In this document: positions 692 through 59,352 of the stretch, piece after piece
Layout: each line of letters begins with the position of its first letter
Position numbering within the stretch: position 1 is the stretch's first letter
Assembly: GCA_004321885.1 (NCBI GenBank)
Contig: SCQK01000013.1
Coordinates: forward strand, 1-64,000
Source of the DNA: Patescibacteria group bacterium
GTDB taxonomy: Bacteria > Patescibacteriota > Patescibacteriia > Magasanikbacterales > GWA2-37-8
Length of the DNA stretch: 64,000 nucleotides
Reading direction: 5' to 3'
Translations under genes and position numbers: made by a program
Notes under the pieces: generated by a model
Seen by the model: the letters and a program-made list of their open reading frames with translations, nothing else
Databases searched by the model: none
Told to the model about the DNA's origin: nothing

Positions 692-868
692 ATGTTCAAA
701 GATTGGTTCAGGCCAAAATGCCCTGTCTGCCAGATGAAAATCAGCAGCCAGTTTGTGGAGGATATGGGTCAAAAATTTTGTTCCACGGCCTGCCGCGACC
801 AGTACAAAGAGCAGATGCAAAAGGCGCGGCACGAGGGCGGGGGCGGCTGCTGCTCATCGCATCAATGA
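692..868 (+). CDS. Small YHS/TRASH-type metal-binding zinc-ribbon protein (58 aa), missing from the ORF track
   Basis: My own translation: [62 protein letters not shown]...FCSTAC is the TRASH/YHS pattern and there is a C-terminal CC tail. Its TGA stop overlaps the ATG of the next gene (ATGA). It lies in a different frame from the spurious N-terminus of ORF 634..1896. Confidence 0.55.
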   Translation: MFKDWFRPKCPVCQMKISSQFVEDMGQKFCSTACRDQYKEQMQKARHEGGGGCCSSHQ

Positions 869-1896
869 GATTTTTTAGCCGGCAAAAAAGGCATATCCTG
901 TGGGGCGTTCTCGGGGGCGTCTTGCTTTTAATTTTCTATTTCGCGGTTTTGTCCATAGCCAATGATTTTGCTCACGCGCTTGCCGAATTCCGGCGCCTGT
1001 GGCCGTGGATTTTCTCTCTGGCCGCGGGCTTTGGCGCCCAGGCCGGCCTTTATTCATTTATTAAAACCAGTCTGCGCGAATGCGCCCGCGGCCAAGCGAC
1101 CGGCGTGGCGGCCGGCGCCGGTATTTCGGGCCTATCCATGGCCGCGTGTTGCGCCCATCACCTAACCGACATATTGCCCGGGGTCTTTGGCCTTTCCATT
1201 GCCTCGTCTTTTCTGGTACAATACCAAATGCCCTTCATCTACCTCGGCGTTGGTTCAAACATCCTGGGCATTTTGCATTTTTTGAATTTAATCAAAAGAC
1301 ATTCGCTGTTCGGCGAAAATAAATACCCTTTCTCGTCCTCCCCCTTATTAAGGGGGAGGGAGGTAGGGGTAAATCCTATGCGAAAATTAGCCTACATAGC
1401 CGCCGCGGTTTTGCTGGCGGTTCTCGTTGTTTCTTTCGGCTGGATTAGGGTGAAAGGGCCTGTCGCCGAATACGTTAATGGTATTCGGCGACAGGCCATA
1501 AAATCAAAAAATAATTCAGGCGCGGCTCCGGTTGCGGCGCCGTCTGCGCCAGAGCAAAGCGAGACAGGCGCGCAGTTTGAAACAAAATCAAACGAGGGCG
1601 GGGGACTGTCGGTGGACGCCGCGCCCGTCAGCCTAAGTATGGGGTATCCAACACAAATCAAACTGACTTTTAACACGCATCAGGGCGATTTGAATTTTAA
1701 CCTGCTCATGCAGGCCGCGCTGTTTGACGACAGCGGACGCGTCTACCGTCCGGCGCGCTGGCTGGGAGAAGCAGGCGGCCATCACCTTGAAGGCAGTTTG
1801 GTTTTTCCCCCGCTTAATCCGGGCGTGAAAAAAATTATGCTCAAACTTTTTGACATTTACGACGTGAAAGAACGGGCGTTTGAGTGGAATATATAA
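865..1896 (+). CDS. Membrane protein (multi-TM N-terminal half with a CCAHH motif, then TM-anchored extracytoplasmic beta-rich half); possibly two fused genes
   Basis: ATG at 865 overlaps the stop of the YHS peptide. The ORF continues in frame to 1896. An in-frame GC-rich palindromic repeat (1336-1376) is followed by an SD-spaced ATG at 1378 that begins a new TM helix ([13 protein letters not shown]...). Coupled to copA. Confidence 0.45.
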
Positions 1897-1927
1897 AGTC
1901 TGGACCAAAGCTTACTTACTCCAAATT

Positions 1928-4324
1928 ATGAGAATCACGATTCTCAAAATTTCCGGAATGCACTGCGCCTCGTGCGCCAACACCATTGAACGCGCGTTGA
2001 AAAAAATGCCCGGCGTTAGTTTGGCGCAAGTCAACTTTGTGACCGAAAAGGTAAAAATTGAATTTGACCCAACGCGTTCCACAGAGGAAGATTTCGTCAG
2101 CGCCATTAAACGTTTGGGATACGGCGCCGAGATTGACCACGTTGCCATGGGCCACACAGCGCACGGCGAACAGGCGCCGGACCAGCACGTCGGCCATCGC
2201 GCCATGCCAGGTCCGGCGCATCATGACCATGGCGCCGCGCCTCAATGGCGGAATAAATTTTTTTGGAGCCTGGGCCTGTCTCTGCCCCTGTTCTATTTCA
2301 TGCTGATGCTGTTTTTTGAAATGCCCGCGTCCGGCTTCCTGCGGCCCTATGTGCCGCTCATCTCTTTTATTTTAACCACGCCGGTACAGTTTATTATCGG
2401 CGCCGGTTTTTATCGCAGCGCCTATTTTGCCCTGCGGCGCAAAGCATTTGACATGGACAGTCTCATCGCCATCGGCACCACGGCCGCTTATATCTACAGT
2501 GTGGTAAATTTTGTAAAATATATTTCCGTTTCCGGTTCAATATTGCTCAAAGACGTTCAACTTTCTGAATTATATTTTGAAACCGCCGCCTTTTTGATAA
2601 CCTTCGTTGCGCTGGGCAAGTGGCTGGAGGCCAGGGCCAAAGGCCGCACCTCGGACGCGATACGCAAACTAATCGGGCTAAAACCCAAGACAGCGCGCGT
2701 GAAAAGAAACGGGGAAACTGTTGATATCCCGGCGGACCAAGTGAGGGTCGGCGACATTATCATCGTGCGGCCGGGCGAAAAAATTCCCACTGACGGCCAG
2801 GTCACGAGCGGTTATTCGTCCGTGGACGAATCAATGGTGACGGGTGAGAGCATTCCGGTGGAAAAAAAAGACAATGACCAGGTCATCGGAGCGACCATAA
2901 ACAAAACCGGCAGTTTTGAATTTAAAGCCACTAAAGTCGGCAGTGAAACCGTGCTGGCCCAGATAATCAAATTCATAGAAGACGCGCAGAATTCCAAGGC
3001 GCCGATACAAGCGGTGGCCGATCGGATTTCGGCCTGGTTTGTGCCGGCGGTTATTTTAACCGCTGTGCTTACTTACGGAATTTGGTTTTTTGGTTTTGGC
3101 GCCGGTTGGTCATATAGCCTGATGGCGTTCACGGCCGTGCTGGTCATCGCCTGCCCGTGCGCCCTGGGACTGGCCACGCCCACGGCCATTATGGTGGGCA
3201 CGGGCAAGGGCGCCGAATATGGCATTTTAATAAAGGGCGGCGAACCATTGGAGGCGGCGCAAAAAATTCAGGCGATTGTTTTTGACAAAACCGGCACATT
3301 GACAAAAGGCCAGCCGGAAGTGACAGACATCATCGCCCTGCCAGATGTCAAACTATCAAATGACCAAATTCTTCAGCTGGCCGCGTCAATAGAATTTAAG
3401 TCAGAACATCCGCTGGCCGACGCTGTCGTTAAAAAAGCCAAAGAAAAAAATCTGCCGCTGTTGGAAATTCAAGAATTCAAAACAATCCCTGGGCATGGCG
3501 TAATAAGCGAAATCAGTGGACAAAAAATTCTTCTGGGAAATCGTAAGCTATTGACTGATAATAATTTAGCCGTTCAGCAAATAAACAATGATGCCGCGGA
3601 AAGACTGGAAAAAGACGGGAAAACAGTAATATTTTTAGCGGCCGGCAATGAGCTGGCCGGCCTCATCGCCGTGGCCGATACGTTAAAGGATGGCTCGGCC
3701 GAGGCCGTGGCGCGTCTCGCCAAAAAAGGCGTTGACATATATATGCTCACGGGCGACAATCAGCGCACGGCCGAGGCCATCGCCCGCCAAGCCGGCATAA
3801 AAAATATACTGGCTGAGGTCCTGCCACAAGACAAGGCCGAAGAGATAAAAAAATTACAGCAACGCGGGTTTAAGGTCGCCATGGTCGGCGACGGCATCAA
3901 CGACGCGCCGGCCCTGGCCCAGGCTGATTTGGGCATTGCCATGGGCAGTGGAACCGATATTGCTATGGAAACCGGCGGCATTGTCATGGTGAAAAATAAT
4001 TTGCAGGATGTTTTGACAGCCATTGATTTGAGCCGCCAGACCATGGCTAAAATCAGGCAGAACTTGTTTTTCGCCCTGTTTTATAATGTCGCTGGCATAC
4101 CCATCGCGGCGCGCGCTTTTGCCGCGTTCGGATTCGTGCTGCGGCCCGAGCTGGCCGGGCTGGCCATGGCGCTGTCTTCGGTTTCGGTGGTCGGCAATTC
4201 TCTGCTTCTGCGCCGCTTTAGGCCCGGCCGCTCAAATTGGCTGTCGTTGGTCGCGCCGATAGTTATGACAGCCGTCTTTATTCTATTATTCCTGCTGTTC
4301 GCCCGCTGGAGCGCCAAGATGTAA
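1928..4324 (+). CDS. copA: Copper-translocating P1B-type ATPase
   Basis: N-terminal HMA domain (GMHCASCA), His-rich linker, CPC motif (ACPCALG), DKTGTLT phosphorylation site, GDGINDAP hinge. The ATG at 1928 precedes the HMA domain. Confidence 0.9.
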
Positions 4325-8467: not shown

Positions 8468-8674
8468 TTGATATTACATTATATGATTCCACAAATAGAC
8501 GAGGAAAAATGTATTGGCTGCGGCACGTGTCCGGCGCTGGCGCCCGGCACTTTTCGCATGCGTGACGATAACAAGGCCGAGGTGTATAATGAAAAAGGGG
8601 ACGAGGACGAGGCGATAAAAATGGCCGCCGAAGCCTGCCCCACCCAAGCAATTTTAATTCTCCCTCCACTTTAG
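8468..8674 (+). CDS. 4Fe-4S ferredoxin (single cluster)
   Basis: 'CIGCGTCPALAP...EACP'. The real start may be the internal Met at 8483. Confidence 0.65.
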   Translation: MILHYMIPQIDEEKCIGCGTCPALAPGTFRMRDDNKAEVYNEKGDEDEAIKMAAEACPTQAILILPPL

Positions 8675-8698
8675 AAGGGGAGGGATAAACATTATTAT

Positions 8699-9424
8699 AT
8701 GTCGGAAAATAAAAATCCCTTGTTATCGTTGGCTTTGATTTTAGGCGCCAGCTTAATCATCAGCGCCATTATCGGCGGCGTCAGTTTTTATAAGGTGCGT
8801 TCGCTGGACAACACCCTGGCCATGACCGGCTCGGCCAAAAAAGCCGTGCGTTCGGACAAGGTAAAATGGCGCGCCAATTTTACCCGCGTGGCCCTGGTGG
8901 ATAACCTGAAAACCGGTTACACCCAGATGAAAACCGACCAAGCCGCGGTGGCGAAATTTTTCAGAGACAGCGGTATTGCGGATAAAAATATCAGCATCTC
9001 GGCCGTGCTTATGGACCAGAATTACAAATACAATTACAGCGGGCCAGCCGAATACACCCTGCGCCAAAATGTTGACATAGAATCCGATGACGTGGATAAA
9101 ATTACCAAATTGACGAAAAACATCCAGAGCTTGATTGACCAGGGCGTAATTTTCTCCACCCTGAACGTGGAATATTATTATTCCAAACTGCCCGAACTGC
9201 GCGTGGAGCTTTTGGGCGAGGCGGTCAAAGACGCGCAGGCGCGGGGAAGTAAAATTGCCGAATCCAGCGGTAAGCGCTTGGGGGCTTTGAAGTCGGCCAG
9301 CGGGGGGGTGGTGCAGGTTTTAGCCCCAAATTCCACGGACGTATCCGACTACGGAGCCTATGACACGGCTACAATAGAAAAGGAAGTGATGGTAGCGGTC
9401 CGCGCGACATTTGTAATCAAATAA
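8699..9424 (+). CDS. SIMPL-domain (DUF541) protein with N-terminal TM anchor
   Basis: Length and pattern are typical of SIMPL/YggE-like proteins. Preceded by a repeat-element SD hairpin. Confidence 0.5.
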   Translation: MSENKNPLLSLALILGASLIISAIIGGVSFYKVRSLDNTLAMTGSAKKAVRSDKVKWRANFTRVALVDNLKTGYTQMKTDQAAVAKFFRDSGIADKNISISAVLMDQNYKYNYSGPAEYTLRQNVDIESDDVDKITKLTKNIQSLIDQGVIFSTLNVEYYYSKLPELRVELLGEAVKDAQARGSKIAESSGKRLGALKSASGGVVQVLAPNSTDVSDYGAYDTATIEKEVMVAVRATFVIK

Positions 9425-9425
9425 C

Positions 9426-10151
9426 ATGCTTTACATTGTCGCGACACCCATCGGCAACCTAGGCGACATCACTTTGCGCGCCTTAGAGACACTCAAAAAT
9501 GTTGATTTTATCTTGTGCGAGGACACGCGCGTGACAAAAAATTTGCTGGCGCATTATAAAATAGAAAAGCCGCTTATCAGTTATCACCAGCACACCGACG
9601 CTCGCAAGACGAAAGAGATCATCGGCCTGCTGGAAAGCGGCAAGAATTTGGCGCTCGTAACCGATGCGGGCACGCCGAGTATTTCCGACCCGGGGGCACA
9701 CAGTTTCCTCCCACTTTTAGGGGGAGGACAGGCCACCACACCAAAGAATTTGGTGTGGTGGCAGGGGAGGGGGTATTCGGTCGTTCCCATTCCAGGTCCA
9801 TCCGCGGTTGTCGCCGCTCTTTCCATTTCCAGCCTCCCCACCGACAAATTTGTGTTCATGGGTTTCCCGCCGCACAAAAACAAGCGACAAAAGTTTTTCA
9901 AAGAAGTGGCCGAGGCCAAACACACAGTCGTGTTCTACGAATCCAGCCACCGCATAAAAAAATGCCTGGCCGAACTGGCGCAGGTCTTGTCGCCAAACAG
10001 ACAAGTGGTTATCTGCCGCGAGCTGACCAAAAAATTTGAGAGCGTTTACCGCGGCACAATTTCCGAAATCGCGTCTCAAACCATTCCCGATAAAGGAGAG
10101 TTTGTGATAGTTATATCCCCCCTTTATAAGGGGAGGACTAAGGATGGGTAA
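9426..10151 (+). CDS. rsmI: 16S rRNA (cytidine1402-2'-O)-methyltransferase RsmI (tetrapyrrole-methylase fold), carrying an in-frame repeat insertion
   Basis: 'MLYIVATPIGNLGDITLRALETLKNVDFILCEDTRVT'. A GC-rich composite palindrome at 9704-9775 is in frame, encoding 'LPLLGGGQATTPKNLVWWQGRGYSVV'. Confidence 0.8.
   Translation: MLYIVATPIGNLGDITLRALETLKNVDFILCEDTRVTKNLLAHYKIEKPLISYHQHTDARKTKEIIGLLESGKNLALVTDAGTPSISDPGAHSFLPLLGGGQATTPKNLVWWQGRGYSVVPIPGPSAVVAALSISSLPTDKFVFMGFPPHKNKRQKFFKEVAEAKHTVVFYESSHRIKKCLAELAQVLSPNRQVVICRELTKKFESVYRGTISEIASQTIPDKGEFVIVISPLYKGRTKDG
9704..9775. repeat. Composite GC-rich repeat: C/G hairpin + 31-nt perfect palindrome GCCACCACACCAAAGAATTTGGTGTGGTGGC + GGGGAGGGGGTA (inside rsmI)
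   Basis: Seen directly. A near-identical 31-nt palindrome (1 mismatch) recurs at 59667-59697. Confidence 0.7.
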
Positions 10152-13394: not shown

Positions 13395-13437
13395 CCCCTC
13401 CCTAACCCTCCCCTTAGCAAGGGGAGGGGAAACACTT
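13395..13437. repeat. GC-rich C-tract/G-tract hairpin repeat carrying the SD, immediately before the atpB ATG (family copy)
   Basis: 'cccctccctaaccctccccttagcaaggggaggggaaacactt|ATG'. Same architecture at 1336-1376, 8660-8686, 10116-10148, 17207-17249, 21164-21204, 38877-38933. Confidence 0.7.
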
Positions 13438-17204: not shown

Positions 17205-17249
17205 TTTTCTCCCCCTTTATAAGGGGGAGACGAAGAGGGGGTAAACATT

Positions 17250-18212: not shown

Positions 18213-20664
<2,452 letters not shown>

Positions 20665-20666
20665 TT

Positions 20667-21101
20667 ATGGCCACGCTCAAATTCAAAATCGTGACGCCGG
20701 AAAAAACCGTTTACGAAAACGATATTTTTCAGGTTTCCATTCCGACCATGACCGGCGAAATCACGATTTTGCCGAACCACATTCCTTTGGTTTCTATTTT
20801 GAAATCCGGAGAAATGAAAGTTGTTGACAAACTCGGCGAACAATACATCGCCGTGGCCGGCGGATTTTTGGAAGTGAAAGGCAACAATGAAGTCGTGATT
20901 CTGGCCGACAACGCCGAGCGCGCTGAAGAAATTGACATTACCCGCGCCGAAGAAGCGCGCCAGCGAGCCGAAGAGCAGATGAAACAGGTCAAAACCGTGC
21001 AAGACATTGATTTCGCCAAACTGCAAGCGGTAATAGACCGTGAAATGAACCGCATCAGAGTGGGGAAGAAGTATAAAAAACTACCACAGCAGCATTCCTA
21101 A
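20667..21101 (+). CDS. atpC: F0F1 ATP synthase subunit epsilon
   Basis: N-terminal beta-sandwich 'KIVTPEKTVYENDIFQVSIPTMTGEITILPNHIPLVS' and C-terminal helical hairpin. Confidence 0.85.
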   Translation: MATLKFKIVTPEKTVYENDIFQVSIPTMTGEITILPNHIPLVSILKSGEMKVVDKLGEQYIAVAGGFLEVKGNNEVVILADNAERAEEIDITRAEEARQRAEEQMKQVKTVQDIDFAKLQAVIDREMNRIRVGKKYKKLPQQHS

Positions 21102-21103
21102 AC

Positions 21104-21137
21104 AAAGAAAAACCCGGCCTTGTGCCGGGTTTTTTAA
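21104..21137 (+). terminator. Rho-independent terminator of the atp operon
   Basis: 'aaacccggccttgtgccgggtttttt': GC stem plus T-run directly after the atpC stop. Confidence 0.8.
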
Positions 21138-21210
21138 TCTGGTATAGTAAGTAAAGCAAAGTTTTCCTCCCCTTGATAAGGGGAGGACTAAGGAGGGGTA
21201 ATAATGCGCT

Positions 21211-21342
21211 ATGGAAAAATGCGCCAAATGTAGCATGCCGCTGGAAGCCGAGGAGGTCACTTGCGCGTGCAATGACACGCTTTGCGTTCATTGTTGCGAT
21301 TGCGGGTCTGACTGCGGATGCGAATGCGCCCAGAAAAAGTAG
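21211..21342 (+). CDS. Unannotated 43-aa cysteine-rich peptide (11 Cys): metallothionein-like or zinc-ribbon mini-protein
   Basis: My own translation: MEKCAKCSMPLEAEEVTCACNDTLCVHCCDCGSDCGCECAQKK*. Preceded by the repeat-element SD (AGGAGGGGTAATA). A 9-codon uORF (ATG 21205) overlaps its start. Confidence 0.45.
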   Translation: MEKCAKCSMPLEAEEVTCACNDTLCVHCCDCGSDCGCECAQKK

Positions 21343-21344
21343 GT

Positions 21345-22037
21345 ATGAACGCGCGAAAGGTGTATAAGCACCTTTTCAAGAAATACGGACCACAAGGTTG
21401 GTGGCCACTTTGTCATTCCGACCGAGCGAAGCGAGTGGAGGAATCCCTTTTTGAAATAGCAGTCGGAGCGATACTTACCCAAAGCACCGCCTGGCGCAAT
21501 GTGGCCGTGGCGATTGCGAATCTGGACAAAGCCAAAGCCCTCACGCCCAAGGCGATAATAAAAATGCCGAAAGCACGACTCTGTAAGTTGATAAAGCCGG
21601 CCGGATATTTCAATCAAAAATGCAAGAAGTTGAAAATATTTGCCAAATGGCTGATGGAAAATTGCGGCGGCGACGTCCTGTCATTGCGAGGAGCGAAGCG
21701 ACGAAGCAATCCTTTGGAAATCAGGAATAAATTATTGTCTATCTGGGGCATCGGCAAAGAAACCGCTGATTCAATCATTCTTTACGCCCTGAACAAACCG
21801 ATTTTCGTGATTGACGCCTACACTCGCCGTCTCTGCGCAAAGTTTAGCATAAAATTCAAGGAATACGACGAGTATCGCGAGTTTTTTGAAATGTCATTGC
21901 GAGGAGCGCAGCGACGAAGCAACCCCAAACGTTTAAGCAGGGGATTGCTTCGGCCTGATGGCCTCGCAATGACATACCAAGAATACCACGCCCTTATCGT
22001 CGCCTCAGGCAAAGACAAACACAAGTACGTATTATGA
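21345..22037 (+). CDS. HhH-GPD superfamily DNA glycosylase (endonuclease III-like, no Fe-S cluster) carrying three in-frame repeat-element insertions
   Basis: 'YGPQGWWP', HhH 'IWGIGKETADSIILYAL', 'VIDAYTRRL'. Inserts at 21411-21447, 21679-21712 and 21892-21974 encode 'LCHSDRAKRVEES', 'SLRGAKRRSNP' and 'SLRGAQRRSNPKRLSRGLLRPDGLAMT'. Confidence 0.65.
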   Translation: MNARKVYKHLFKKYGPQGWWPLCHSDRAKRVEESLFEIAVGAILTQSTAWRNVAVAIANLDKAKALTPKAIIKMPKARLCKLIKPAGYFNQKCKKLKIFAKWLMENCGGDVLSLRGAKRRSNPLEIRNKLLSIWGIGKETADSIILYALNKPIFVIDAYTRRLCAKFSIKFKEYDEYREFFEMSLRGAQRRSNPKRLSRGLLRPDGLAMTYQEYHALIVASGKDKHKYVL

Positions 22038-23788
22038 AAACCCATACCAAATTAGCTCTAAAAATTTATTGGCAACACGCGAAGCGATACAGGCTTCTGC
22101 TTTTTATCGTATTTTTTTCTGCTGTCGGTGCCGCCTTGACCGGGGTTGTCATTCCTCTTTATCTTAAGAAATTCGTGGATATACTGGCGTCTCCGGGCGC
22201 TGATGCCTCCAGCCGAATAACATCCATATTAACGCTGTTTGCCGTTTGGCTGGTCGCGCAATGGGCTTTGTGGCGAATAAATACTTTTTCTTTCGCTTAT
22301 TGGCAGACAAAAATCGTGTCGGATTTATTTAACACTTGTTATCAATATTTACACAGGCATTCTTATTCGTTTTTCAACAATACTTTCGTCGGGTCGCTGG
22401 TGAAAAAAGTACAGTGGTTCAGCCGCGGCTTTGAAAACATCTCGGCCACCATTGTTTGGAATTTTTTACACATGGCGGTTCAACTGGTGTTTATCGTGGC
22501 TGTTTTGTTCGGCGTAAATACTGTCTTGGGATTGGGTATGATCGTTTGGCTGATTGTGTTTTTGGTTGTCGCCTGGATTTTCAGTTTGTATAAATTAAAA
22601 TTTGACATCAAACGCAGCGAATCGCAAACGGCCGTGTCGCGCCACTTGGCCGACACTATCACGAATCACAACACTGTTCGTCTATTTGGCGGTTTCGGCA
22701 AAGAAAAGCGTCGCTTTTGGCAATTGACGCAAGAGTATAGCAAGCGCAATATTTTTTCTTGGAATTTGAATAACTACTTTGAAATGGCGCAGGGTGTGTT
22801 GGTGGTGCTTTTGGAATTCGGTTCGCTTTTTATGGCCGCTTATTTGTGGAAGCGCGGTCAATTTACGGTGGGCGATTTTGTGTTGTTGCAAACATTTGTC
22901 TGGACGATTTTTGACCGCACCTGGGAGTTTGGTCGCAACGTGCGCCATTTTTATCAGGATTTGGCCGACGCCGAGGAGATGTCACAAATTTTTGACACAC
23001 CGCACGATATTCAAGACAAGCCCGGAGCCAAAGATTTGAAAGCGAGAGAAGGAAAAATTGAATTCGCGGATGTGACGTTTAATTATCACGAGACCAGAAA
23101 AGTGCTGGACAAATTTAATCTGGTGATCAATTCGCGCGAGCGCGTAGGGCTGGTGGGCCAGTCAGGCGCCGGCAAAACCACGATTGTCGGACTGTTGTTG
23201 CGTTTGTTTGACGTGGGCAGTGGCAAGATTTTGATTGATGGGCAAAATATCGCCGATGTTACGCAAGAAAGTTTGCGCCGCGCCACCAGCATGGTGCCGC
23301 AAGACCCGATATTATTCCATCGAACTTTGATGGAAAACATCCGCTACGGCCGAGCCGATGCCAGCGACGCCGAGGTGATGAAAGCGGCCAAATTGGCGCA
23401 CTGCCACGAGTTTATCAGCGACTTGCCGGATAAGTATGATACCTATGTGGGCGAGCGCGGGGTAAAATTGTCCGGCGGAGAACGCCAGCGCGTGGCCATC
23501 GCGCGCGCCATACTGCGCGACGCGCCGATTTTAGTGTTAGACGAAGCCACTTCCAGCTTGGATTCCGAGTCGGAAAAATTGATACAAGAAGCGATGCTGA
23601 ATTTGATGAAAGACAAGACCGTGATAATCATCGCGCATCGCTTGTCCACCCTCGCGCGTCTGGACAGAATTGTCGTGATAGAAGAGGGTGGGATTATTGA
23701 AGAGGGCTCGCACGAATCCTTGCTCAAAAACCAGCAGGGGATTTACAACAAACTTTGGAATTTGCAAGCCGGGGGATTTATTGTGTAA
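22034..23788 (+). CDS. ABC transporter, fused permease/ATPase (MsbA/exporter type)
   Basis: Six-TM N-terminal half. Walker A 'GQSGAGKTT', signature 'LSGGERQRVAIARA', Walker B 'ILVLDEATS'. Confidence 0.9.
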   Translation: MKTHTKLALKIYWQHAKRYRLLLFIVFFSAVGAALTGVVIPLYLKKFVDILASPGADASSRITSILTLFAVWLVAQWALWRINTFSFAYWQTKIVSDLFNTCYQYLHRHSYSFFNNTFVGSLVKKVQWFSRGFENISATIVWNFLHMAVQLVFIVAVLFGVNTVLGLGMIVWLIVFLVVAWIFSLYKLKFDIKRSESQTAVSRHLADTITNHNTVRLFGGFGKEKRRFWQLTQEYSKRNIFSWNLNNYFEMAQGVLVVLLEFGSLFMAAYLWKRGQFTVGDFVLLQTFVWTIFDRTWEFGRNVRHFYQDLADAEEMSQIFDTPHDIQDKPGAKDLKAREGKIEFADVTFNYHETRKVLDKFNLVINSRERVGLVGQSGAGKTTIVGLLLRLFDVGSGKILIDGQNIADVTQESLRRATSMVPQDPILFHRTLMENIRYGRADASDAEVMKAAKLAHCHEFISDLPDKYDTYVGERGVKLSGGERQRVAIARAILRDAPILVLDEATSSLDSESEKLIQEAMLNLMKDKTVIIIAHRLSTLARLDRIVVIEEGGIIEEGSHESLLKNQQGIYNKLWNLQAGGFIV

Positions 23789-24804: not shown

Positions 24805-27800
24805 ATGGCGGAGCTAAACAAATCGCAAAAATCGGCGGTGGAGTATGTTGGCGGACCGCTACTGATAGTGGCGGGCGCTGGCACGGGCAAAACCACTGTC
24901 ATCACCAAAAAAATCGCCCACCTGATAGAGCAAAACCTGGCCAAGCCCGAGGGAATTTTGGCGTTGGCTTTTAACGACAAAGCGGCCGATGAAATCCAGA
25001 CCCGCGTTGACGCCGAACTGGAGCTGGGCTACGTCGAAACGCATATTTCCACGTTCCACGCTTTTTGCCAAAAACTTTTGGAAACATACGGGCTGGATAT
25101 TGGCATCTCCAATCAGTTCAAAGTACTCACGCAAACAGACGCCTGGATTTTGGTGCGCAAAAATCTGGATAAGTTCAATCTTGATTATTATCGTCCGCTC
25201 GGCAATCCCACGCGCCATATTCACGAACTCATCAAACATTTTTCCAAATGCAAAGACGAACTGATTACTCCGAATGAATATCTGGAATACGCCGAGAACG
25301 TGGAATTAGACAAAGACAACAAAAACACTGGCGAGCGCACGCGTCTGACAGAGGTGGCCAACGCTTATCACGCCTATAATCAGCTGTTGCTGGACAACAA
25401 CGTCTTGGATTTTGGCGATTTGATTTTTTACGCGAACAAACTATTGGCCGAACGGCCGAAAATTTTAGATGGTTTGCGCAAGCAATTCAAATATATTTTG
25501 GTGGATGAGTTTCAGGACGTGAATTACGCGCAGTATGAGCTCGTGCAAATGCTCTCCCACCCCCCCTCCGTCCCCCCCTCAGGCAGGGGGGGAGGACATG
25601 GAGCCCAACTCACGGCGGTAGGGGATGATGACCAGAGTATCTACGCTTTTCGCGGGGCCTCGGTGTCCAATATCTTGCGCTTCAAAGATGATTATCCGAA
25701 GTGCAAAGAAATCGTGCTGACCGAAAACTATCGCTCGGGACAAAAGATATTGGACATCTGTTACAAATCAATTCAAAACAATAATCCTGACCGGTTGGAA
25801 GCGAAATTAAAAATTGATAAAAAGTTGAAAGTGGCTACCCCCCCTTCGCCCCCCCCTTATCAAGGGGGGGAAGTAATCCATATCCACTGCGCCACCTTGG
25901 AGCAGGAGGCGAGCGCGGTGGCCCAAGAAATATCACGGCTTAAAAAAAGCGAGTCCGAAGCGAACTGGGACGATTTCGCGATTTTGGTGCGCGCCAACAG
26001 CCACGCTGATATTTTTGTAAACGCGCTTGCCAATGCCGGCATTCCCTGTGAGTTTTGGGCCGCCAGCGGCTTGTATCATCAGCCCATCGTATTGGATTGC
26101 TTTAATTTTTTCAAACTCATCACCAATTATCACGAATCAACGGCAATTTACCGCCTCCTGCGCCTGCCGTTTGTAAACTTCAAGGAAAACGACTTACAAA
26201 AAATCACGTATAACGCCCACAAAAAAACCGTTTCGTATTACGAGGCGCTTAAACGCGGCGCCGAGTTTGGTTTATCAACCGAAGGCGCCGTAATCGCGGA
26301 TAAAATCATTTCTCTTATTCACGACGGCATGAAATCCGGCCGCTTTGAAAAACCACACCGCGTGCTTTACGACTTTTTGGACAAGAGTGGCTATCTGAAA
26401 TATCTGGCGCACGAAGAAAACGAGGGCAACGCCAATGTTATCCGACAAATCTACCAGCTGACCGACTTTTTTGAGTTTATAAAAAAGTACGAGCAGGCTA
26501 GCCCCGACGCCAACGTTTACGGCCTGATGGAACACATGGAATATCTGCTTGACTCTGGCGAAGAAGGCGCCATGCGCCAACAAAACGATACGCCCGATTC
26601 GGTGAACATTTTTACCGTGCACAAGGCCAAGGGTTTGGAGTTCAAGTATGTTTTTATGGTCAATCTGGTGGAAGACCGTTTTCCCTCGCGCAAAAAATCC
26701 GAGCCTATTGAAATCCCTCTGCCGCTGGTGAAAGAAAAACTGCCCGAGGGAGACAGCCATCTGCAGGAAGAGCGCCGCTTGTTTTACGTGGCGGCTACGC
26801 GCGCCAAAGAGCGCTTGTATTTTACCAGCGCCGACGACTACGGCGGAGCGCGCAAGAAAAAAATCAGCCGCTTTTTGGATGAGTTGGGGTATAAAGCTGG
26901 CTCCATAGTCCCGCAGGGCTATGGAGCCAAGATGCAGTATGTCTCCATAGGATTGCCTGCGGCAACCACTATGGAGCCAGCGAAGGGTGAGTTTGTTTAC
27001 GCCCCGCCCAAGATTTTTTCCTTTTCGCAAATCAAATCGTACAATAATTGTCCGTATCAGTACAAACTCGCCAGCATTATTCACTTACCGCAAAAGCAAA
27101 GTCACTATTTCAGTTTTGGCAACAGCATGCATAACACCTTACTGGAGTTTTACAAGCGGGTACAGGCGTTAAATAACAGCCGGCAGGAAAGTTTGTTCGG
27201 AATTACAAATGGCTCCGCAGGCCGCGCGGCGGGCACTATCCGCCTACGCGGCACTATGGAGCCAACCGTGAACAGTGTAAACAACGAAGTAAAAGCCCCG
27301 CCCTTGGATGAACTTCTGGGAATTTATCAAAAAAATTGGATTGACGAGTGGTATTTGAGCAAAAAACAAAAAGATGAATACTTTAGCGAAGGCAAAAAAA
27401 TGCTGGCCGCTTTTTACGAATCCAATAAGGACAGGTGGACGGTGCCCGTGGCGCTGGAAGGCGCGTTCAAAATCAAAATAGGGGAGTACTTTTTGGCCGG
27501 ACGCATGGACAGGGTGGATAAACTGCCAGACGGTTCGTTGGAAATTATTGATTACAAAACCGGCGAAAGTAAAGAAACGGCCGCGGGCGAAGAAAAAGAG
27601 CAGTTGATGATTTACCAGATGGCGGCCGAGCAGTTGTCACGCTACAAAGAAATTGGCCGCGCCGGCAAACTCACCCTGTATTATTTACGCGATAATTTGC
27701 CGGTGTCTTTTATCGGCGAGGAAAAAGAACTGGAAAAAATAAAAACAAAACTGCTTGGGGTGATGGAAAAAATAATTGCCGGCGACTTTCGCGCCACGCC

Positions 27801-58425: not shown

Positions 58426-59352
58426 ATGACTATTAGCACAATATTTTTTGGAACACATAATTTTGCGGCGAAAATTTTGGCAGAGCTTATCAAAAACGGC
58501 TCTTTTGACATTACACTGGCAGTCACCCAGCCGGACAGACCGGCGGGAAGAAAACAAGACCTGGAAATTCCGGCCGTGAAACTTTTAGCCGAAAAAAACA
58601 ATATTCCGGTCGCCCAACCGGCCGGTTTGTCATTGCGAGGAGTAATCCCTTTTCCTGATTTCTATGACCTGAACATCCTCTGCCAATACGGAAACATAAT
58701 CACCAAAGAAATTTTAGACAAATCAAAATACGGTTCAATCAATGTCCACCCTTCGCTATTGCCAAGATACCGCGGGGCCTCACCCATCCAATCCGCGCTC
58801 GTAAATGGCGAAACCGAAACCGGCGTTTCCATAATTTTGATGGATGAGGAGCTTGACCATGGCCCGATTTTGGCGCAAAAAAAAATGAACATTGGCGATG
58901 ATGATAATTTTGTTTCTTTGAGCGCGAAATTGTCGTATCTATCCGCCCCTCTTTTGGTAAATACGGCCCTTGATTTTGTAAACGGAAAAATTACTCCCGG
59001 GCCACAAAACCACGACCAAGCGACTTTTTGCAAACAACTCTCGCGCGAGGATGGTAAAATTGATTTTAATAAATCCGCCAAAGAAATTTACAATCAGTGG
59101 CGCGGCCTCGCGCCGTGGCCCGGGGTTTGGGCAAGCTGGGAAAACAAACGTCTCAAATTTATTAATATCAGCCCCCTTCCCCTTTATAAGGGGGATGTGG
59201 GGAGGGGGTATGTAAGGGGGCACAAACTCATCATCGCCTGCGCCCAAGGCGCTATTGAAATTTTAGAACTCCAACTTGAAGGAAAAAAGCCCATGGTCGC
59301 GGCCGCGTTTATAAACGGCTATGGCAAAATAAACGGCGCTATTTTACGCTAA
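58426..59352 (+). CDS. fmt: Methionyl-tRNA formyltransferase, with two in-frame repeat insertions
   Basis: 'IFFGTHNFA', 'NVHPSLLPRYRGASPIQ'. Inserts: 58629-58650 ('SLRGVIP') and 59171-59220 ('SPLPLYKGDVGRGYVRGH'). Confidence 0.85.
   Translation: MTISTIFFGTHNFAAKILAELIKNGSFDITLAVTQPDRPAGRKQDLEIPAVKLLAEKNNIPVAQPAGLSLRGVIPFPDFYDLNILCQYGNIITKEILDKSKYGSINVHPSLLPRYRGASPIQSALVNGETETGVSIILMDEELDHGPILAQKKMNIGDDDNFVSLSAKLSYLSAPLLVNTALDFVNGKITPGPQNHDQATFCKQLSREDGKIDFNKSAKEIYNQWRGLAPWPGVWASWENKRLKFINISPLPLYKGDVGRGYVRGHKLIIACAQGAIEILELQLEGKKPMVAAAFINGYGKINGAILR

What the first reader, a model, noticed from the sequence alone, without database searches (positions are those of the whole stretch)
21205..21342. 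Unannotated 43-aa peptide with 11 cysteines behind a repeat-element SD, with an overlapping 9-codon uORF
The peptide reads MEKCAKCSMPLEAEEVTCACNDTLCVHCCDCGSDCGCECAQKK. It is missed by the ORF track's 60-aa minimum. It begins 15 nt after AGGAGG of a GC-rich repeat copy. A 9-codon uORF (ATG 21205, MRYGKMRQM*) has canonical SD spacing and terminates inside the peptide's first codons, so the two may be translationally coupled. The 26% Cys content with CxxC/CxC/CC spacing suggests either a metallothionein-like metal buffer or a ranthipeptide/SCIFF-like RiPP precursor. No radical-SAM maturase is adjacent, so I favour a metal-binding role. A copper-handling cluster lies at the left end of the window, but no functional link is shown.
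Basis: seen in the sequence. Interest (0 to 1): 0.6.

Follow-up and report, generated by a model that had tools for sequence, protein, structure and literature searches.

The report
Conserved unannotated cysteine-rich mini-protein gene
The 43-codon reading frame is a real, conserved but often unannotated gene of Patescibacteria (CPR bacteria); its tiny protein has 11 near-invariant cysteines, matches no described family and most likely wraps around several metal ions, while the small upstream reading frame is an accident of a repeat insertion.

Summary
The ORF 21211..21342 (+) exists as described: 43 aa with 11 Cys, the most Cys-rich of 322 ATG-ORFs in the window. It is a real gene. About 30 distinct homologues of 41-77 aa, all from Patescibacteria, keep the pattern CxxC-x10-CxC-x4-CxxCCxC-x3-CxCxC. 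Against the closest relative dN/dS is 0.11. The other five frames are broken by stops in relatives. The gene usually has its own extended -10 promoter. In one clade it sits just after atpC, but the downstream gene varies, and in Paceibacterota it lies elsewhere. Gene callers miss it in about half of the loci, including the source NCBI record. The 9-codon uORF really starts at 21204. It is absent from the closest relative and was created by a genome-specific hairpin/SD repeat inserted into the 5' UTR, so coupling is not supported. No RiPP maturase is present in any locus. Pfam, NCBIfam and PDB give no match. An AlphaFold model is confident (pLDDT 84) but has almost no regular secondary structure, and its only fold hits are non-significant. 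Best reading: a new family of metallothionein-like or poly-zinc mini-proteins. Metal binding is inferred, not shown.

The parts
21108..21135 (+). Intrinsic terminator of the atp operon (AAAAACCCGGCC-TTGT-GCCGGGTTTTTT), 7 nt after the atpC stop
   Evidence: Read directly from the sequence. The terminator scan reports the hairpin. It is conserved in L002.
21140..21148 (+). Extended -10 promoter-like element TGGTATAGT, the predicted promoter of the peptide gene
   Evidence: Conserved as TGGTATACT in L002. An extended -10 lies within 90 nt upstream in 9 of 20 family loci, against 1.2 in shuffles with a maximum of 5 in 500. Function is inferred.
21166..21201 (+). Copy of a genome repeat in the 5' UTR: a 10-bp hairpin (21165-21174 with 21178-21187) followed by a G-rich SD-like block (AGGAGG 21191-21196) and TAA
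   Evidence: Repeat families D1/D2. Sister copies end 8-14 nt before the ATGs of ORFs at 8699, 10161, 13438 and 17250. The hairpin is predicted by folding. The copy is absent from the orthologous site in L002.
21204..21233 (+). 9-codon uORF MRYGKMRQM*, out of frame with the peptide; judged incidental
   Evidence: Present in the sequence. L002 has no ATG and no repeat at this site.
21211..21342 (+). Gene for a 43-aa Cys11 mini-protein of a new Patescibacteria family
   Evidence: ORF. Homologues P0122-P0140. Syntenic homologues in L002, L004 and L257. Cys conservation in alignments A1 and A4. dN 0.049 and dS 0.458 against L002. AF2 pLDDT 83.7.
21345..22037 (+). HhH-GPD DNA glycosylase (MagIII-like). 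Its true start is 2 nt after the peptide stop, so it is probably co-transcribed and translationally coupled
   Evidence: Pfam PF00730 and NCBIfam NF010494. The N-terminus aligns with orthologues at ATG 21345, not at NCBI's 21318. L002 has the same TAA-nn-ATG junction.
20667..21101 (+). atpC (ATP synthase epsilon), the conserved upstream neighbour in one clade
   Evidence: Pfam PF02823 and PF00401. The peptide follows atpC in the window, L002, L004, L257, L125, L128, L134 and L136.

Best explanation
The ORF is a genuine, independently transcribed small gene. Its product is a soluble protein of about 4.5 kDa, usually acidic, and its fold is dictated by 11 near-invariant cysteines. The protein has no signal peptide, no membrane segment and almost no conserved residues besides the cysteines and a CxxC(G)xPL knuckle. 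I infer that it folds only around metal ions. On this reading an N-terminal zinc-ribbon-like knuckle (C4, C7, C18, C20) joins a C-terminal CxxCCxCxxxCxCxC thiolate cluster, binding roughly 3-4 Zn(II), Cd(II) or Cu(I). It would then act as a metallothionein-like metal buffer, store or donor in Patescibacteria. In this genome a promoter (TGGTATAGT, 21140-21148) lies just after the atp terminator. A lineage-specific hairpin/SD repeat was inserted into the 5' UTR; it supplies AGGAGG and incidentally created the uORF. The peptide's stop lies 2 nt before the glycosylase start, so the downstream glycosylase and ABC exporter are probably co-expressed with it. What is shown: the gene is real, it is conserved and under purifying selection, it has promoter-like elements, and it has no maturase. 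What is inferred: metal binding, stoichiometry and physiological role.
For: Conservation: about 30 distinct homologues of 41-77 aa. Nine Cys are invariant and two are at least 90% conserved; the exceptions are one-residue shifts. Profile E-values reach 4.5e-14 in 5.8 billion sequences. Selection: dN/dS is 0.11 against L002, 9 of 14 differences fall at third codon positions, and two Cys codons differ only by TGT/TGC. The other frames carry stops in L257 and L004. Expression signals: 9 of 20 loci have an extended -10, against 1.2 expected. L136 shows a promoter (11 of 12 matches), the ORF and a terminator as a monocistronic unit. Composition: 20-27% Cys, 0-3 aromatic residues, and a net charge from -10 to +7, which argues against a conserved macromolecular partner. 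The C-terminal tails vary, and P0130's tail adds five more Cys and a His. The AF2 model is compact and confident (pLDDT 83.7) with almost no regular secondary structure. Some neighbours are metal- or redox-related: a ZnuB/MntB-type ABC-3 permease (L151), rubrerythrin (L131) and a weak, sub-threshold glutaredoxin-like membrane protein (L119).
Confidence: 0.5

Rival explanations
1. It is a structural poly-zinc 'micro-protein' (zinc-ribbon or cross-brace type). It would act by binding a partner, whether protein, RNA or DNA, as a small regulator or adaptor, and not as a metal buffer.
For: The Cys spacing is strictly conserved over deep divergence. A CxxCG-type knuckle is followed by P-L. The AF2 fold is confident. 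The only PDB hints, though non-significant, are RING, LIM, MYND, FYVE and ZZ zinc modules.
Against: Non-Cys residues are poorly conserved. Net charge swings from -10 to +7 between members and the tails are variable, so no conserved interaction surface is visible. Eleven Cys is more than two ordinary Zn sites need. All structural hits have E > 0.3.
Confidence: 0.27
2. It is an accessory or regulatory factor of the F1Fo ATP synthase, for example a redox- or metal-sensitive inhibitor, encoded as the last gene of the atp operon.
For: The gene directly follows atpC in 8 lineages, at 15-200 nt, while the downstream gene varies between glycosylase, ABC exporter, UvrD-like helicase and others. In L125 and L128 the gap is only 15-17 nt and no terminator lies between.
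Against: All atpC-linked cases belong to one clade that shares the whole atp...UvrD synteny, so they count as roughly one evolutionary event. In the window and L002 an intrinsic terminator and a separate promoter lie between atpC and the gene. L136 has its own near-consensus promoter. Paceibacterota members lie in unrelated contexts. Surface charge is not conserved.
Confidence: 0.06
3. It is an iron-binding or Fe-S redox mini-protein, rubredoxin-like or cluster-carrying, serving electron transfer or oxidative-stress defence.
For: A CxxCG knuckle as in rubredoxins. Adjacent to rubrerythrin in L131 and to a membrane protein with a weak, sub-threshold glutaredoxin-like Pfam match in L119. Eleven Cys could ligate Fe-S clusters.
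Against: There is no ferredoxin or rubredoxin family match: the best is Fer4 at E 0.93 in 1 of 30 members. No second CPxCG knuckle is present. The adjacency is seen once each. The L131 rubrerythrin already carries its own rubredoxin-like domain.
Confidence: 0.1
4. It is a RiPP precursor (SCIFF or ranthipeptide-like) matured by a radical-SAM enzyme.
For: It is a short Cys-rich peptide. One relative (L136) has a radical-SAM gene two genes downstream.
Against: The L136 enzyme is RlmN-like (CPMRCAFC motif, no SPASM match) and sits next to an RF-1-domain gene and an ABC-F gene. No maturase, protease or dedicated exporter recurs in about 20 loci. NCBIfam, which includes the SCIFF model TIGR03973, gives no hit at E <= 10 for 30 members. 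Conservation runs from residue 1 to the last Cys, with no leader/core division.
Confidence: 0.02
5. It is not a gene: a chance ORF in an intergenic spacer.
For: It is short. It was not called by NCBI, JGI or Logan gene callers in the window, L001, L002 and L257.
Against: dN/dS of 0.11, near-invariant Cys in about 30 homologues, promoters and terminators framing it, and stops in all other frames in relatives.
Confidence: 0.02

Closest known systems
Bacterial metallothioneins of the SmtA/BmtA family (Pfam PF02069; Synechococcus SmtA, Pseudomonas PflQ2MT)
   Same: Both are small cytoplasmic bacterial proteins of about 50 aa in which CxC and CxxC motifs dominate. SmtA and its relatives have a defined, zinc-finger-like metal-coupled fold and bind 3-4 Zn(II) in one cluster (PMC10612145). 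The present family likewise looks well folded rather than floppy (AF2 pLDDT 84).
   Different: There is no sequence match: 0 of 30 members hit PF02069. SmtA uses 9 Cys plus 2 His and has aromatic residues, whereas this family has 11 Cys and no conserved His. The Cys spacing and the taxon (Patescibacteria) differ.
Mammalian metallothionein alpha-domain (M4Cys11 cluster)
   Same: Both have exactly 11 cysteines in about 30-36 residues with CC, CxC and CxxC motifs. From my own knowledge of the family, this number ligates four divalent ions in the alpha-domain.
   Different: There is no homology, the order of motifs differs, and this family has an N-terminal ribbon-like knuckle. The stoichiometry here is untested.
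MymT, the copper metallothionein of Mycobacterium tuberculosis
   Same: It is a small bacterial Cys-rich protein outside the SmtA family, with CxC motifs of the kind favoured by Cu(I)-thiolate clusters (mentioned in PMC10612145).
   Different: The motif is different and there is no detectable similarity. This family shows no copper-responsive context.
Small zinc-finger micro-proteins and zinc ribbons with C(P)XCG knuckles; RING/LIM cross-brace modules
   Same: An N-terminal CxxC(G) is followed by a second Cys pair about 10 residues later. The weak PDB hits are to Hakai RING, LIM, MYND and ZZ modules.
SCIFF / ranthipeptide precursors (TIGR03973)
   Same: They are about 45 aa and Cys-rich.
   Different: There is no model match and no adjacent SPASM radical-SAM maturase. 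The Cys count and spacing differ, and there is no leader/core organisation.

Membership tests
Metallothionein (operational class) | Low molecular mass, 15-30% Cys, CxC/CxxC/CC motifs, few aromatic residues | tested here: met
   Members are 41-77 aa with 20-27% Cys and 0-3 aromatic residues. CxxC, CxC and CC motifs are all present.
Metallothionein (operational class) | Binds several d10 metal ions in thiolate clusters | not testable with these tools
   This needs metal titration with ESI-MS or 113Cd NMR of the peptide.
SmtA/BmtA bacterial metallothionein (PF02069) | Match to the family profile, with the Cys9His2 pattern | tested here: not met
   No Pfam hit for the window peptide at E <= 1. None of 30 members hit PF02069 at E <= 10.
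Other Pfam metallothionein families | Match to any Metallothio* profile above threshold | tested here: not met
   The only hit is Metallothio_5 at E 3.3 in 1 of 30 members.
SCIFF / ranthipeptide RiPP precursor | Match to TIGR03973-type precursor models | tested here: not met
   NCBIfam gives 0 families for the peptide. For 30 members it gives one irrelevant hit at E 7.4.
SCIFF / ranthipeptide RiPP precursor | Adjacent SPASM-domain radical-SAM maturase | tested here: not met
   About 20 loci were inspected. The only radical-SAM gene, in L136, is RlmN-like and has no SPASM domain.
Zinc ribbon / RING-LIM type zinc finger | Significant sequence or fold match to a solved zinc module | tested here: not met
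F-type ATP synthase operon gene | Consistent co-transcription and co-occurrence with atp genes across lineages | tested here: inconclusive
   The gene follows atpC in 8 related lineages. It is separated from atpC by a terminator and promoter in the window and L002, has its own promoter in L136, and is unlinked in at least 8 Paceibacterota-type loci.
Translationally coupled uORF leader | uORF conserved with the main ORF in relatives | tested here: not met
   L002 lacks the ATG and the repeat. The other relatives have unrelated upstream sequences, mostly without an SD.

The most novel reading that the evidence does not exclude
The mini-protein is not a passive metal buffer. Instead it is a metal- or thiol-redox-sensing regulator of the F1Fo ATP synthase in ultra-small CPR bacteria. 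On this reading it is kept at the 3' end of the atp operon because it docks on epsilon or F1, and so ties energy conservation to zinc or redox status.
Probability: 0.06. Interest if true: 0.85.

Novelty: new variant of a known kind. Interest (0 to 1): 0.55.

Why it matters
Only two sequence families of bacterial metallothioneins are established: SmtA/BmtA and MymT. A third Cys11 family confined to Patescibacteria would show how organisms with minimal genomes and few regulators handle zinc, copper or thiol stress. It would also add a compact 40-residue metal-cluster scaffold. On the practical side, the gene is missed by gene callers in about half of the loci examined, and once the antisense strand was called instead. 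It also led NCBI to over-extend the start of the neighbouring glycosylase. An HMM built from the alignment here could fix the annotation of many CPR genomes.

Tried and rejected
- A word-index protein search with the single peptide found nothing. An exhaustive phmmer search was needed.
- The all-TGY codon patterns scanned against genome and metagenome contigs returned mostly TGY-repeat junk (poly-Cys frames of trinucleotide repeats). 
- Rfam found no RNA family in 20000-23000; only sub-threshold hits on the terminator.
- The top phmmer hit, P0121 (2899 aa, 15 matched stretches), was not examined further. Its size and many matched stretches suggest a repetitive Cys-rich protein rather than a family member.
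- Rejected ideas: RiPP precursor, uORF coupling, a link to the copper ATPase at 1880..4324, and a chance ORF. The reasons are given under the rival explanations.
- I considered a functional link to the HhH-GPD glycosylase, because a Cys-rich ORF precedes it in 5 of 5 orthologous loci, including a different peptide type in L003. The family also occurs without the glycosylase in L125, L128, L134 and L136.

Full report
OBSERVATION. The ORF 21211..21342 (+) reads MEKCAKCSMPLEAEEVTCACNDTLCVHCCDCGSDCGCECAQKK, with 11 Cys in 43 aa. An in-frame TAA at 21199-21201 makes ATG 21211 the only possible start. AGGAGG lies at 21191-21196, 14 nt upstream. It ends at TAG 21231-21233 (MRYGKMRQM*), inside codons 7-8 of the peptide frame. 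Among 322 ATG-ORFs of at least 30 aa in all six frames of the window, this ORF has by far the highest Cys content: 26%, against a mean of 2.6% (sd 3.0%), with the runner-up at 17%.

CONTEXT. The peptide lies downstream of an atp operon: atpA 15684, atpG 17250, an inserted Fic gene 18213, atpD 19297 and atpC 20667..21101. An intrinsic terminator follows at 21108-21135, then TGGTATAGT (21140-21148), then a repeat copy (21166-21201), then the peptide.

Two nucleotides after the peptide's TAG comes the ATG (21345) of an HhH-GPD glycosylase. This enzyme matches PF00730 and is closest to MagIII-type NF010494. Its stop overlaps the start of an ABC exporter at 22034. Alignment with orthologues places the glycosylase start at 21345, not at the 21318 used in NCBI's record TAN32948.1. 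The peptide and the glycosylase therefore do not really overlap. The organism is a Patescibacteria (CPR) MAG. An identical 1.5-kb contig exists in SRR8426592, and the ORF was not called there either.

IS IT A GENE? Yes. An exhaustive phmmer search of 1.84 billion representatives gave 11 small proteins (42-76 aa) that align end to end at about 50-60% identity. A profile search added more, with E-values down to 4.5e-14. Reading the neighbourhoods of glycosylase orthologues revealed syntenic copies that no gene caller had reported:
- L002 445..582 has 5 amino-acid changes relative to the window peptide.
- L257 2837..2965 lies in a 963-kb Patescibacteria contig.
- L004 carries a called 54-aa gene.
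DNA-pattern scans added L005, L069, L119, L151, L159, L202, L217, L242 and L255.

In the 30-sequence alignment A4, nine Cys are invariant. The other two are at least 90% conserved, and their exceptions are one-residue shifts. The pattern is CxxC-x10-CxC-x4-CxxCCxC-x3-CxCxC.

Against L002 there are 14 nucleotide differences, 9 of them at third codon positions. dN is 0.049 and dS is 0.458, so dN/dS is 0.11, and two Cys codons differ only by TGT/TGC. The other five frames contain stops in L257 and L004.

EXPRESSION SIGNALS. The repeat at 21166-21201 belongs to a family found elsewhere in the window: a CCCCTTnATAAGGGG hairpin followed by a G-rich block. Other copies end 8-14 nt before the ATGs of long ORFs at 8699, 10161, 13438 and 17250. 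The peptide ATG is thus placed like those of bona fide genes. The hairpin is predicted to leave AGGAGG single-stranded.

The closest relative, L002, lacks the repeat, the AGGAGG and the uORF ATG, but keeps the terminator and the TGGTATACT element. The repeat is therefore a lineage-specific insertion into the 5' UTR, and the uORF is its by-product. Two ATGs 7 nt apart would compete for the same ribosome rather than couple.

Across the family, 9 of 20 loci have an extended -10 (TGnTAnnnT, at least 5 of 6 matches) within 90 nt upstream. Shuffles give 1.2 on average, with a maximum of 5 in 500. In three loci the hexamer ends exactly 8 nt before the ATG, which suggests leaderless mRNAs. L136 shows TTGACA-17-TATAGT, the ORF and a terminator, a monocistronic unit. 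Most relatives have no SD at all.

SYNTENY. The gene follows atpC in the window, L002, L004, L257, L125-127, L128-130, L134-135 and L136, at gaps of 15-200 nt. L005 has one gene in between. The downstream gene varies: glycosylase, ABC exporter, UvrD/AddA-like helicase, or a 114-aa ORF followed by an RlmN-like radical-SAM gene. These genomes share the whole atp...UvrD arrangement, so they amount to roughly one evolutionary observation.

Members of the Paceibacterota type lie elsewhere:
- L131: NUDIX, GNAT, the peptide, then rubrerythrin.
- L132: YceG upstream and a P-type ATPase downstream.
- L151: after a ZnuB/MntB-type ABC-3 permease.
- L119: before a membrane protein with a weak, sub-threshold glutaredoxin-like Pfam match (E 0.0096, 16.7 bits against a 26-bit cut-off).
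- L069: before a PF20603 hydrolase.
- L255: after a 337-aa ORF that I read as GAPDH from its sequence; this was not checked with a tool.

No maturase, protease or dedicated transporter recurs.

The composition is metallothionein-like: 20-27% Cys and 0-3 aromatic residues. Identity outside the cysteines is low. Net charge ranges from -10 to +7, and the C-terminal tails vary, one of them (P0130) carrying five extra Cys and a His. The lack of a conserved surface argues against a fixed macromolecular partner. It favours the view that metal binding is itself the function.

Known bacterial metallothioneins are the SmtA/BmtA family, which has a zinc-finger-like fold and binds 3-4 Zn, and MymT, which binds Cu (PMC10612145). 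This family matches neither. No paper describing Cys-rich small proteins of CPR bacteria was found.

MECHANISM (inferred). The mRNA is transcribed from its own promoter. Translation starts at ATG 21211, helped in this genome by the repeat-borne SD. The apo-peptide folds on binding several metal ions through 11 thiolates: an N-terminal ribbon-like site plus a C-terminal cluster. By analogy with the 11-Cys alpha-domain of mammalian metallothionein (my own knowledge), up to four divalent ions are plausible. The protein would buffer, store or donate Zn or Cu, or scavenge oxidants. Ribosomes terminating at TAG 21340-21342 could reinitiate at ATG 21345, which would couple glycosylase synthesis to the peptide. 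L002 has the same junction, while L257 and L004 have gaps of 35 and 15 nt.

RIVALS. A structural poly-zinc micro-protein with a partner (0.27). An Fe or Fe-S redox protein (0.10). An ATP-synthase accessory factor (0.06). A RiPP precursor (0.02). A chance ORF (0.02).

VERDICT. The HMA P-type ATPase at 1880..4324 is 17 kb away and is never adjacent in relatives. The finding is a new, taxon-restricted and frequently unannotated family of Cys11 mini-proteins. I rate it a new variant of a known kind and of moderate interest (0.55).

Noticed in passing
window 18213-19289 (+): A Fic/DOC-domain gene (PF02661) sits between atpG and atpD inside the atp operon. In relatives (L125, L128, L136) atpG is followed directly by atpD, so this is a lineage-specific insertion into a core operon.
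   Followed up: partly
window 21409-21445, 21677-21714, 21890-21960 (within glycosylase 21345-22037): Three in-frame insertions built from genome repeats (encoding CHSDRAKRVEES, SLRGAKRRSNP and RGAQRRSNPKRLSRGLLRPDGL) lengthen the glycosylase to 230 aa, against 202-207 aa in L002 and L257. Orthologues P0003 and P0004 carry other insertions at the same positions.
   Followed up: partly
window 1338-1372, 8666-8698, 10116-10151, 13410-13437, 17209-17244, 21166-21201, 59176-59210: A hairpin repeat family (CCCCTTnATAAGGGG plus a G-rich block) lies 8-14 nt upstream of the ATGs at 8699, 10161, 13438, 17250 and 21211 (the 1338 and 59176 copies were not checked against a gene start). It may act as a mobile RBS or 5'-UTR module. 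Related G/C-rich motifs also occur inside coding regions, for example in the UvrD-like gene at 25572 and 25849.
   Followed up: partly
L003 2831-2968 (+): A different acidic 45-aa ORF with 10 Cys and 2 His (MDDDKQCSCGPDCHCDEEKCDCCDGNDETCSCDCHLKEKKDEVEE) lies behind TGATATAAT, directly upstream of the orthologous glycosylase. The gene caller annotated the antisense ORF instead. It has no Pfam match. A Cys-rich ORF therefore precedes this glycosylase in 5 of 5 loci examined.
   Followed up: partly
window 692-868 (+): A 58-aa ORF, MFKDWFRPKCPVCQMK...FCSTAC...[10 protein letters not shown], gives only sub-threshold treble-clef and zf-FCS-like Pfam hits. It lies upstream of the HMA-domain P-type ATPase (1880-4324) and overlaps a dubious 420-aa TTG ORF. 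It may be another unannotated small metal-binding gene.
   Followed up: partly
window 21318-21344: The NCBI annotation (TAN32948.1, 239 aa) starts the glycosylase at ATG 21318, inside the peptide ORF. Orthologue alignment supports ATG 21345 instead.
   Followed up: yes
L136 3945-4189: In this relative the peptide gene is a clean monocistronic unit: TTGACA-17-TATAGT overlapping the atpC stop, the ORF at 4001-4153, and a 10-bp terminator at 4166-4189.
   Followed up: yes
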